Positions 3,001 to 6,000 of a DNA stretch of 48,246 nt are shown here, piece after piece (within the stretch, counting starts at the first letter, position 1; each line of letters begins with the position of its first letter). Source of the stretch: a virus. Lineage: Duplodnaviria; Heunggongvirae; Uroviricota; Caudoviricetes. The position numbers are program-made. The DNA lies in the IMG/VR virus record IMGVR_UViG_2917849834_000004; one strand, given 5' to 3'.

Positions 3001-6000
3001 ACCCTGCCCTTCCACTGTGGGGATAAGATGAAAGCTATCTTCTGAGCGACGAAAAATCATGCCTAAGGCATCATCGAAAATCCTCAGCGCATTAACGCCA
3101 CGAATTTTTAGTTCCCCGGTCATCAAATCACCAGATTTTTTTACATATCGCAGATCAAAATCTGAATAAATATTGCCAGGGTTTATAACACTGAAGTAGC
3201 TTTTCTCGCTATCAAGAAGGCAAATTAAGGGAATGCCTTTAATGATATCGTTCGCTACCAGCTCGGACTGGTTCCCCTTATAAAGTGGGAACGTACCAAG
3301 AACCTTTCCGCCCAGTGTTAATTGAAGCGTCGCGGCGTTGGTATTGTTCTGAACGGGGAAAACGATAATCGGGGTTCGTAGCGTCCAGTCCGAGCCTCCA
3401 TTAACAAAAAAACGTCGCGGGAAGTTCAAGCGTCAGTGCATTTGCAGTGCCGCCAGCAACACCCGCAATATAATGACCGCTCTGAAGCTGCGCTATCTGT
3501 ACGAAATAGTTTTCCGAACCACGCGTGGCAAAGTTAGCCACAACGTCATTAAGGGACCAACCTTTCGCAGTTGTTCCTTCCTGCCCACGAATGACTTTCA
3601 GCACATCACCGCTTACCGATACCAGGTGACAAATCTCAAACGCAGACTCTTTATTATCGGTAAGCGTAATTTTTGCATAGACGCGTTGCTCGTTCGATTT
3701 ATTTTCAAAATCGGCAGAAAGCAATTTTGCAAATTTAGCCCCCGTACCTGGCATCACAGGAATATCAGTCTGAATCGTCGTAATATCGCCAGCCAGTGCT
3801 GAAACAACATTGTTACCGAATCCAAGAATCATTTTTGTATCATCGTTGTTACATAGGAATAAATAAAAGGGAGTTTTACATATTTCTGGTCAATAGCATC
3901 TTTCAGAAAATAACCTATGCCATCGCCATACTCTGGTATCTGAATAGAAAAAACACTGTCCGATACAGTCACGCTCACATCAAAAGTGTGCTGCAACGGC
4001 GGGTCTATTCCGTTTTTTCCATGAATGAACCGCGCCACACGTCGCTTTAACCAGTCAATGCAGAAATGCGAACCGTCAGCCTTATAAAAATTCCACGTTA
4101 ATATTCGTTTAAAATAATCATCAGGTACATACGATGCCTGCCCCGGAACATAATTCCGCATTGCTGCATACGGGATCGTATTGTATTCAATGGTATTGTA
4201 TGCGCCTCGTGCAATAGCTTCCTCGGAAACCTGTAGTAAAGGCCTTTCAACGCCATAAATCCCGAGTGCAATCCAGTCCAGCAATTTCCCGGTTATTGAT
4301 TCCGATGTCCAGCATGGCAATGCCAGATTGTTGAGTGAATCGAGGTATTCCTGAGCAATTTCATTGTATGCTTCAAAGAACGCAACAACATTCGGATCAT
4401 CTCTGTACTGCACAAACGGATAAGCAGGAAGAATTTTCTCAGTCAGATATTGCATACTTGTTGACCTGAACCTGTGATGCCACCGTCGAAAAATAGGAAT
4501 AGGTATCGCCATAAACCAGGCTTGTGTCTTTTGCCGGAAGAACAATTTGGCCGTTAATGCCAATGCTCACACTGATTGTTGAGATCAATGTCGAATCAAC
4601 CAGCAATCTGACGGAGCTGGTAAAAATATCCTGGATTCGCAGCAGATTTATCGGGTGGCCGACCTCAATAGAATTGATGTAATCAGCAACGTTTTGCTGC
4701 ACAGCCATAGCAATACCCGCCGGATCAACATAATCATCAGACACCGTGTTCCAGGTGATTAGCACCATGACGTTTTGTGATGACGGGATAACGAATGGCA
4801 CCTGATAAACGTCCGGCGAAACGGTTATTGAAACCGTGCGTTTTTCCACTGCCGCACCGGATGGATTGGTTACATCGTGGGTCAGTTTCGAAATATCCGG
4901 TACAGATTTGTAAATCGCATAAGCCACATCATACGGATCACCACCACCAATAACCGCAACCCATTTCCCCAACGACGACTGCCGGAAAGAAATCAGGTTT
5001 TCTCGCACACCGCTTACTGATTTGAGCATCGCTTTAAAGCAATCCGGTGTTCCCTGCACACCAAACATGCCGGACTCCATGACTTCGGCGCGGTAAGATG
5101 CCCACGTTTGCGCCTCCTGACCGGGCATTCCTGCGCTAAGGTTCGTGCACTTTACAGGCTGGTCTTTTGGTACTGAGGTAATGACCTGCGTCACAGTCCC
5201 TTCCGGTACAGCCCATGATCCTGACGTTGTAGCCACACAGTAGACTGGCTCAGTCTGACCGCTTTCTGGTACCACCGTATCGCGGGAAACTGCATACTGG
5301 TAGTTACCGTCACCAACCACAAACCCTTTAGGGATGCCAAACCCCGGCAACGCCTCAAACACCACGTATACCGCCGTATTTGTACTTAATCCCTTCTGTG
5401 CTCCATAAATGTTTCCGAGTTGCATCAGTAACGGAATATTCGCGCCGTATGGGCTTACGGAGTTAATAAGATCAACACGCGCCTGGTCTATTAATGCCAG
5501 CGCCCCGACTGCCGTGCTGGCAAGGTCTGTAATAAGTCCCGCCGGAAGGTTGGCTGTATATCCAGGTACTTTTTCAGCAACTCTGGTGATAAGATTTGCG
5601 AGTAAATCATTGGGTGGCGTAGGCTGCGCACCCGCACTGGTCATAGTAATTGGTATTTCTGACATAATTAATCTCAAGAGGATTTTATGAAATTTAACTC
5701 ATTAGGGATTTTGATTAGCTCACTGCTATTTTCTGGTGTTTCTCATGCAATTGATGCCACAGAGAGAATGAATGACATTCAACAGTTCGGTAAATGGTAT
5801 TATGCTGAGTTTACCATGCCTACCACTATGGCTTATCGTATTGGTGTTGAATCCAAATTGCCGCAGGATAAATCAACTTTATTTATTGATATATCACCGT
5901 TAACTCAATGTGAGCCCGGTGATGTTACTGTCAATCATTTTATTGGATATAAACAAATGGATTTACCACCGTTCCTTCCTGTAAGCTATAAAATCAGTGG

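What the first reader, a model, noticed from the sequence alone, without database searches (positions are those of the whole stretch)
3395..3435. Tail fiber gene split at an A7/T7 homopolymer
The fiber N-terminal portion (3832-3401) ends at TAA inside ACG TTT TTT TGT TAA, and the C-terminal portion continues in the +1 frame from the same tract. One T fewer would fuse them into a single fiber of about 420 aa. This could be a pseudogene, a phase-variable fiber, or a homopolymer miscall.
Basis: seen in the sequence. Interest (0 to 1): 0.45.

Follow-up and report, generated by a model that had tools for sequence, protein, structure and literature searches.

The report
Sequencing error splits prophage fiber gene
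The tail-fiber gene of this Rac-like prophage looks broken in two only because the Ion Torrent draft assembly counted seven T's where a second assembly of what appear to be the same strain's reads, and every related prophage examined, has six; it is almost certainly an ordinary intact gene.

Summary
On the minus strand a 143-aa ORF (3832-3401) stops just after a T7 run (3406-3412), and the rest of the fiber continues in the +1 frame to 2572. Removing one T gives a 419-aa protein that is 418/419 identical to an intact fiber of Escherichia sp. E4385. The window is contig PDIA01000059.1 of Escherichia cryptic clade II strain E4702, a draft made from single-end Ion Torrent reads. An independent (Logan) assembly of run SRR6148340 carries the same prophage, with 0 substitutions in 16.3 kb, and has T6. 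The two assemblies differ only at four one-base homopolymer lengths. A sister assembly from the same study (E4385, PDIK01) shows nine extra bases in A/T runs in 13.3 kb, two of them in this gene. Every other copy examined has T6: E. coli genomes, phage Rac-SA53, IMG/VR and metagenome contigs. No homolog has a two-ORF arrangement, so programmed frameshifting and phase variation are unsupported. Verdict: a homopolymer overcall, not a biological feature (about 0.9). A genuine recent frameshift remains a minor possibility.

The parts
3406..3412 (-). T7 homopolymer (A7 on the + strand). It is one base longer than the T6 found in every relative and in the independent assembly. This is the site of the apparent frameshift.
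   Evidence: Searches give the sequence. One search is the alignment showing T7 against T6. Searches count T6 in 55 locus copies and T7 only in fetches of PDIA01000059.1. Searches show T6 in the Logan assembly of SRR6148340.
3401..3832 (-). Apparent N-terminal ORF of 143 aa: 142 native residues, then Cys and TAA. It is the 5' part of the fiber gene. By its position next to the baseplate genes it is presumably the baseplate-proximal part, which is an inference.
   Evidence: One search lists the ORF. One search shows phrog_25419 spanning residues 1-253 of the fused protein. One search shows PDB 8jov_1, 'putative tail fiber protein', matching residues 4-158, across the break.
2572..3405 (-). The 3' part of the fiber gene, in the +1 frame relative to the 5' part in this assembly. 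It carries the C-terminal domain related to that of Mu tail fiber protein S. The true gene is most probably 2572-3832 minus one T, encoding 419 aa.
   Evidence: One search gives the fused translation. One search shows 418/419 identity to WP_138184004.1 of Escherichia sp. E4385. One search shows similarity to Mu tail fiber protein S (5yvq), E 1.5e-7, residues 351-417.
2024..2569 (-). Tail fiber assembly protein (chaperone) gene immediately downstream of the fiber gene.
   Evidence: Pfam Caudo_TAP, E 1.7e-25; phrog_136.
3829..5665 (-). Upstream baseplate genes: the 408-aa baseplate J-like protein (4439-5665) and the 208-aa protein (called at 3829-4455). They place the fiber gene in a baseplate/fiber module.
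   Evidence: PF04865 Baseplate_J, phrog_6, phrog_8212.

Best explanation
The split is an artefact of sequencing and assembly. The window comes from the draft genome of Escherichia cryptic clade II strain E4702 (PDIA01000059.1), which was built from single-end Ion Torrent reads. That chemistry mis-measures the length of homopolymers. Here a T6 run inside an intact 419-aa Mu-S-like tail fiber gene of a Rac-like prophage was called as T7 in the deposited consensus. This created an apparent stop two codons later and shifted the rest of the gene into the +1 frame. In the organism the gene is most probably a single intact ORF. It is followed by its Caudo_TAP chaperone gene. Shown: the platform, the T6 in an independent assembly, the error profile of a sister assembly, and T6 in all relatives. 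Inferred: that run SRR6148340 is E4702's own read set, and that the real DNA has T6.
For: 1. Source and platform. The window is 100% identical to PDIA01000059.1 of GCA_004745155.1. PDIA00000000 is strain E4702, sequenced on Ion Torrent with single-end 35-400 nt reads at about 50x and assembled with MIRA/SPAdes (PMC6639607).

2. Independent assembly. Logan contig SRR6148340_249 carries the same prophage, with 0 substitutions in 16,268 aligned nt, and has T6 at this site. The two assemblies differ only at four one-base run lengths, at window 15742, 11546, 3674 and 3412. At the three of these sites that were compared with relatives (15742, 3674, 3412), the relatives agree with whichever assembly keeps the ORF open; 11546 was not checked.

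3. Same error class in the same project and the same gene. For strain E4385, the PDIK01 assembly and the Logan assembly of SRR8835206 show 0 substitutions and 9 extra bases. All nine are in A/T runs of 5-8 nt within 13.3 kb, and two lie in this fiber gene.

4. Relatives. T6 is found in 55 of 55 other locus copies, from E. coli chromosomes, phage Rac-SA53, 26 IMG/VR contigs and 9 metagenome contigs. T7 is found only in fetches of PDIA01000059.1. All 40 listed E. coli hits have exactly two annotated features under the match, that is, an unsplit fiber.

5. No other decay. Apart from the extra T, the gene differs from the intact E4385 gene at two positions in 1,260 nt, and the fused protein is 418/419 identical.

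6. Literature. Ion Torrent assemblies are prone to single-base homopolymer indels that cause frameshifts. In one study the mean affected run length was 5.5 and adenine was the base most affected (PMC12046094).
Against: No reads were inspected here, so the true T count in E4702 DNA has not been observed directly. The assignment of SRR6148340 to E4702 rests on sequence identity and on two proteins found only in these two sources, not on metadata. At least one other frameshift in this prophage is present in both assemblies and may be real: A3 to A2 in the SLT-domain gene at about 11218. The prophage may therefore be decaying in reality, which raises the prior for a real fiber mutation. The 20 kb of chromosomal flank contains no frameshifted gene. 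That is only weakly informative: about 1.7 would be expected at the prophage's rate.
Confidence: 0.88

Rival explanations
1. A genuine, very recent frameshift mutation: replication slippage changed T6 to T7 and inactivated the fiber gene of a decaying Rac-like prophage in strain E4702, making a true pseudogene.
For: Prophage genes commonly decay. The SLT-domain (tape-measure-like) gene of the same prophage carries a one-base deletion at about 11218 that both assemblies share. kilR also has a unique one-base deletion. The flanking 20 kb of chromosome shows no frameshifts.
Against: The independent assembly of an identical prophage has T6. The change is exactly the +1 A/T-run overcall seen nine times in a sister assembly. 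The gene shows no other degenerative change. The allele is unique among 56 copies.
Confidence: 0.08
2. Phase variation: the T tract is a slippage-prone switch, and the culture contains a mixture of T6 (fiber ON) and T7 (fiber OFF) genomes. That mixture would explain why two assemblies disagree.
For: Two assemblies with otherwise identical sequence disagree at this tract. Hypermutable polyG tracts in receptor-binding genes of Campylobacter phages are discussed in papers returned, but the precedent itself rests on my own knowledge, because none of those papers was read here.
Against: There is no tract-length polymorphism among 55 other copies from many strains and environments. The tract is short (6 nt), whereas contingency loci usually have longer tracts (background knowledge). 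The same two assemblies also disagree at three unremarkable runs in other places, so the disagreement is background Ion Torrent noise. The tract encodes conserved Phe-Phe within a conserved protein segment.
Confidence: 0.03
3. Programmed recoding: a +1 ribosomal frameshift or transcriptional slippage on the T7 run produces the full-length fiber from two ORFs.
For: Runs of T/A can promote RNA polymerase slippage (background knowledge). The downstream frame is open for 277 codons from the tract.
Against: No homolog has the two-ORF layout. All are single ORFs with T6, so there is nothing conserved to program. The downstream ORF has no independent ATG or visible Shine-Dalgarno sequence near the tract (inspection by eye).
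Confidence: 0.01

Closest known systems
Ion Torrent (flow-based) homopolymer-length indel errors producing false frameshifts in draft bacterial assemblies
   Same: It is a single-base run-length change in an A/T homopolymer of 6 nt. It comes from a single-end Ion Torrent draft and is not reproduced by a second assembly. The same class of error is abundant in a sister assembly.
   Different: Nothing of substance differs. The only missing element is direct inspection of the reads.
Phage Mu tail fiber S with its chaperone U (Caudo_TAP family)
   Same: The C-terminal ~70 residues resemble Mu protein S (PDB 5yvq, E 1.5e-7). A Caudo_TAP chaperone gene follows directly. Baseplate J-like genes lie upstream.
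   Different: The N-terminal two thirds belong to other families (phrog_25419 and phrog_454). No invertible segment was looked for or seen. A second, unrelated fiber-plus-chaperone pair follows at 603-2000 and 1-606.
Lambda PaPa stf frameshift, where the side tail fiber gene is split into two ORFs in the laboratory strain (recalled from background knowledge: Hendrix and Duda 1992)
   Same: It is a lambdoid/Rac-type fiber gene that appears as two ORFs because of a one-base frameshift relative to relatives.
   Different: In lambda PaPa the mutation is real and heritable. Here the extra base is not reproduced in an independent assembly.
Hypermutable polyG tracts in receptor-binding protein genes of Campylobacter phages (phase-variable host recognition)
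   Same: It is a homopolymer inside a receptor-binding or fiber gene whose length decides whether the full protein is made.
   Different: Those tracts are long G runs that vary among and within phage stocks. This is a T6 run that is invariant in 55 other copies.

Membership tests
Sequencing/assembly artefact (flow-chemistry homopolymer miscall) | The data were generated on a platform with length-dependent homopolymer errors. | tested here: met
   PDIA00000000 (strain E4702) was sequenced from Ion Torrent single-end reads (PMC6639607). The window is identical to PDIA01000059.1.
Sequencing/assembly artefact (flow-chemistry homopolymer miscall) | The difference is a one-base change in the length of a homopolymer, with no accompanying substitutions. 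| tested here: met
   T7 against T6. There are 0 substitutions against the Logan assembly in 16,268 nt.
Sequencing/assembly artefact (flow-chemistry homopolymer miscall) | The change is not reproducible in an independent assembly or data set of the same strain. | tested here: met
   Logan SRR6148340_249 has T6. That this run belongs to E4702 is inferred from identity, not from metadata.
Sequencing/assembly artefact (flow-chemistry homopolymer miscall) | The same error class is demonstrably frequent in assemblies from the same pipeline. | tested here: met
   E4385 PDIK01 against Logan SRR8835206 shows 9 extra bases, all in A/T runs of 5-8 nt, in 13.3 kb.
Sequencing/assembly artefact (flow-chemistry homopolymer miscall) | Read-level support is split or biased at the site. 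| not testable with these tools
   Reads cannot be accessed here.
Phase-variable (contingency) locus | Tract length is polymorphic among related genomes or within populations. | tested here: not met
   T6 in 55 of 55 other locus copies. No T5 or T8 was seen, and T7 occurs only in the PDIA01 contig.
Phase-variable (contingency) locus | The tract is long and hypermutable, usually 8 or more repeats for mononucleotides (background knowledge). | tested here: not met
   The native tract is 6 nt.
Programmed frameshift / transcriptional slippage gene | The two-ORF arrangement and the slippery tract are conserved in homologs. | tested here: not met
   All homologs are single ORFs of 419-517 aa.
Frameshift pseudogene in a decaying prophage | The frameshift is present in the organism's DNA. 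| tested here: inconclusive
   It is present in the deposited contig and absent from the independent assembly. Sanger sequencing is needed.
Frameshift pseudogene in a decaying prophage | There are further signs of relaxed constraint in the gene. | tested here: not met
   Only two substitutions against the intact E4385 gene, one conservative Asp/Glu and one synonymous.
Mu S-like tail fiber with Caudo_TAP chaperone | The C-terminal domain is homologous to that of Mu protein S. | tested here: met
   PDB 5yvq, E 1.5e-7, residues 351-417.
Mu S-like tail fiber with Caudo_TAP chaperone | A cognate tail fiber assembly (Caudo_TAP) gene lies immediately downstream. | tested here: met
   Window 2024-2569, PF02413, E 1.7e-25.

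The most novel reading that the evidence does not exclude
The T6/T7 disagreement between two assemblies reflects a real mixed population in the E4702 culture. On this reading the tract would be a low-frequency slippage switch that turns one of the two fibers of a Rac-like prophage off and on, changing the host range of released particles.
Probability: 0.03. Interest if true: 0.4.

Novelty: not a real feature. Interest (0 to 1): 0.05.

Why it matters
The main value is as a caution. Taken at face value, this site would be annotated as a fiber pseudogene or proposed as a phase-variable host-range switch. The evidence shows it is a platform error in an Ion Torrent draft. The 16 cryptic clade II Escherichia genomes of this project are among the few available for that lineage. 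Gene-content, pseudogene and prophage-integrity analyses based on them will therefore be distorted by homopolymer frameshifts unless these are corrected. Biologically, the gene is an ordinary Mu-S-like fiber of a Rac-type prophage and is most probably intact.

Tried and rejected
- Two scans of species-representative genomes found nothing: one for the exact T7 site and one for a T6-T8 pattern. The GTDB representatives evidently lack this fiber allele.
- A 61-nt megablast across the site found nothing, probably because of low-complexity masking, so it was uninformative.
- An exact look-up of the conceptual fused 419-aa protein found that it is not in the collection. The reason became clear later: the Logan assembly has T6 but a different homopolymer error at window 3674.
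- I tested whether frameshifts are enriched in the prophage relative to 20 kb of chromosomal flank. There were none in the flanks, but only about 1.7 would be expected, so the test does not discriminate.
- The alignment to E. coli STEC276 suggested more frameshifts at 40909 and 41024. These alleles are shared by many genomes and are not specific to the window.
- A +1 indel at window 2007 relative to E4385 proved to be the common allele.
- Programmed frameshifting and an independent start for the downstream ORF were considered and rejected. No homolog has two ORFs, and no ATG or Shine-Dalgarno sequence is visible near the tract.

Full report
**Observation.** On the minus strand the window reads ...CCC GCG ACG TTT TTT TGT TAA TGG AGG....
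- A 143-aa ORF (3832..3401) ends at TAA (3403-3401), two codons after a T7 run.
- A second open frame, +1 relative to the first, passes through the same run and continues to 2572.
- Deleting one T gives a continuous 419-aa protein.

**What the gene is.** The gene sits in a baseplate/fiber module on the minus strand.
- Upstream are a baseplate J-like protein (PF04865) and a 208-aa protein. The fiber gene follows.
- Downstream are a Caudo_TAP tail fiber assembly protein (PF02413, E 1.7e-25), a second fiber (phage_tail_N plus Collar) and a second assembly protein.
- The fused protein matches tail-fiber PHROGs across the break: phrog_25419 covers residues 1-253 and phrog_454 covers residues 52-417.
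- Its C-terminus resembles Mu tail fiber protein S (5yvq, E 1.5e-7), and its N-terminal 158 residues match another solved putative fiber (8jov).
- The whole window is a Rac-like prophage carrying recE, recT, kilR, xisR and intR next to ttcA.

**Comparison with homologs.**
- E. coli chromosomes and phage Rac-SA53 carry the same gene at 92-93% DNA identity as one ORF of about 460 aa.
- At the site they have T6 where the window has T7, with identical flanks.
- A pattern allowing T6-T8 found 26 IMG/VR contigs and 9 metagenome contigs, all with T6.
T7 occurs only in the five fetches of the window's own contig.
- The closest relative is the same prophage at the same chromosomal site in Escherichia sp. 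E4385. It encodes an intact 419-aa protein that is 418/419 identical to the fused translation.
- Within the gene the two DNAs differ only by the extra T and two substitutions.

**Where the window comes from.**
- The 143-aa product exists in one record only, PDIA01000059.1 of GCA_004745155.1. The window is identical to that record.
- PDIA00000000 is Escherichia cryptic clade II strain E4702 from Hong Kong intertidal sediment. It was sequenced with single-end Ion Torrent reads at about 50x and assembled with MIRA/SPAdes (PMC6639607).
- Its chromosomal flanks are 89-90% identical to E. coli and 99% identical to E4385.
- Ion Torrent assemblies are known for single-base homopolymer indels that create frameshifts. 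In one study the mean affected run was 5.5 nt and adenine was the base most affected (PMC12046094).

**Direct tests of the artefact hypothesis.**

First, strain E4385 is present twice in the collection: as the project's PDIK01 assembly and as a Logan assembly of run SRR8835206.
- Over 13,269 nt of this same prophage region the two show 0 substitutions and 9 indels.
- Every indel is an extra base in PDIK01, in an A/T run of 5-8 nt.
- Two of them fall in this fiber gene, which is thereby split into 234 + 162 aa.

Second, the 408-aa baseplate protein and the 414-aa SLT fragment of the window are found in only one other place, Logan contig SRR6148340_249.
- Over 16,268 nt this contig has 0 substitutions relative to the window's contig and differs at four one-base run lengths.
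- At window 3412 the Logan contig has T6 and the NCBI contig has T7.
- At 15742 the NCBI contig is one base short.
- At 3674 and 11546 the Logan contig is one base short.
- At 3412, 15742 and 3674 the relatives agree with the version that keeps the ORF open. Site 11546 was not compared with relatives.

The split is therefore not reproducible from what is almost certainly the same read set. The two assemblers made different homopolymer errors.

**Alternatives.**
- A genuine recent frameshift cannot be excluded without reads or Sanger data. The A3-to-A2 change in the SLT-domain gene (~11218) is shared by both assemblies, and kilR has a unique one-base deletion. Some real decay of this prophage is therefore possible. 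I give a real fiber frameshift about 0.08.
- Phase variation would predict tract-length polymorphism, and none exists among 55 copies. The disagreement between assemblies is matched by three others at ordinary runs (about 0.03).
- Programmed recoding is excluded for practical purposes, because no homolog has the arrangement (about 0.01).

**Verdict.** This is an Ion Torrent homopolymer overcall in a draft assembly (confidence about 0.88). The gene is an ordinary, most probably intact, Mu-S-like fiber of a Rac-type prophage. Interest is low. The useful by-products are a documented error profile for the cryptic clade II draft genomes and a conserved T8 slippery site noted below.

Noticed in passing
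window 12253-12260 (minus strand), ORFs 12651..12022 and 12250..11948: A T8 run (zero-frame codons GTT TTT TTT, i.e. a T_TTT_TTT heptamer) is invariant in 23 of 23 locus copies even though the flanking DNA diverges to 84-87% identity. A -1 shift there fuses the first ~133 codons of the 205-aa gene to a 100-codon ORF. The product is about 230 aa and ends just before the SLT-domain (tape-measure-like) gene. This looks like the G/GT-type programmed frameshift of tail assembly chaperones. It is not annotated in the E. coli records examined.
   Followed up: partly
window ~11218 (minus-strand genes 11958..11212 and 11215..9971): The SLT-domain, tape-measure-like gene is a single 657-699 aa ORF in relatives. 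Here it is split into 248 + 414 aa by a one-base deletion: A2 against A3 in 5 relatives. Unlike the fiber site, this change is present in both the NCBI and the Logan assembly. It may therefore be a real inactivating mutation, or a systematic read error.
   Followed up: partly
window ~15742 (minus-strand gene about 15799..15359): A 146-aa structural gene appears truncated (122/105 aa) because of G3A4 in the window. Twelve copies have G3A5 and two have G4A4. The Logan assembly of the same prophage has G3A5 and an intact 146-aa gene. This is a second assembly artefact in the window.
   Followed up: yes
window ~41298 (+ strand, kilR 41207-41424): kilR is frameshifted by a one-base deletion: TTGCTCGG against TTGCCTCGG in 9 of 9 other prophages. 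No KilR gene is called on this contig. No independent assembly covers the site, so it is undecided whether this is an artefact or real loss of a toxic gene.
   Followed up: partly
L069 (PDIK01000011.1, Escherichia sp. E4385) against L005 (Logan SRR8835206): The first deposited E4385 assembly carries 9 one-base insertions in A/T runs in 13.3 kb. They split the SLT gene, the 335-aa gene, antA, the fiber, its chaperone and chromosomal uspF. This error density would affect any gene-content analysis of that record.
   Followed up: yes
window 1-2000 (minus strand): A second fiber (465 aa, phage_tail_N plus Collar) with its own Caudo_TAP chaperone (201 aa) follows the first fiber-chaperone pair. The C-terminal parts of both fibers are mosaic among relatives: fiber 1 is 419-517 aa, and fiber 2 is 465 to more than 1,000 aa.
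   Followed up: no
P0002 (255-aa cluster representative, Logan) and cluster 1: Several E. coli copies of this fiber gene end early at about residue 215 and run into unrelated sequence (...SEKSYFSV then GVAEESVLSRY...). This may be an insertion or a recombination junction. It was not examined.
   Followed up: no
window 40568-41100 against E. coli STEC276 (L058 16303-16827): A 174-aa hypothetical protein annotated in STEC276 corresponds in the window and in at least 9 other prophages to a region with two one-base differences, where only a 77-aa ORF is called. Either the long ORF is specific to a minority of prophages or it is spurious.
   Followed up: partly
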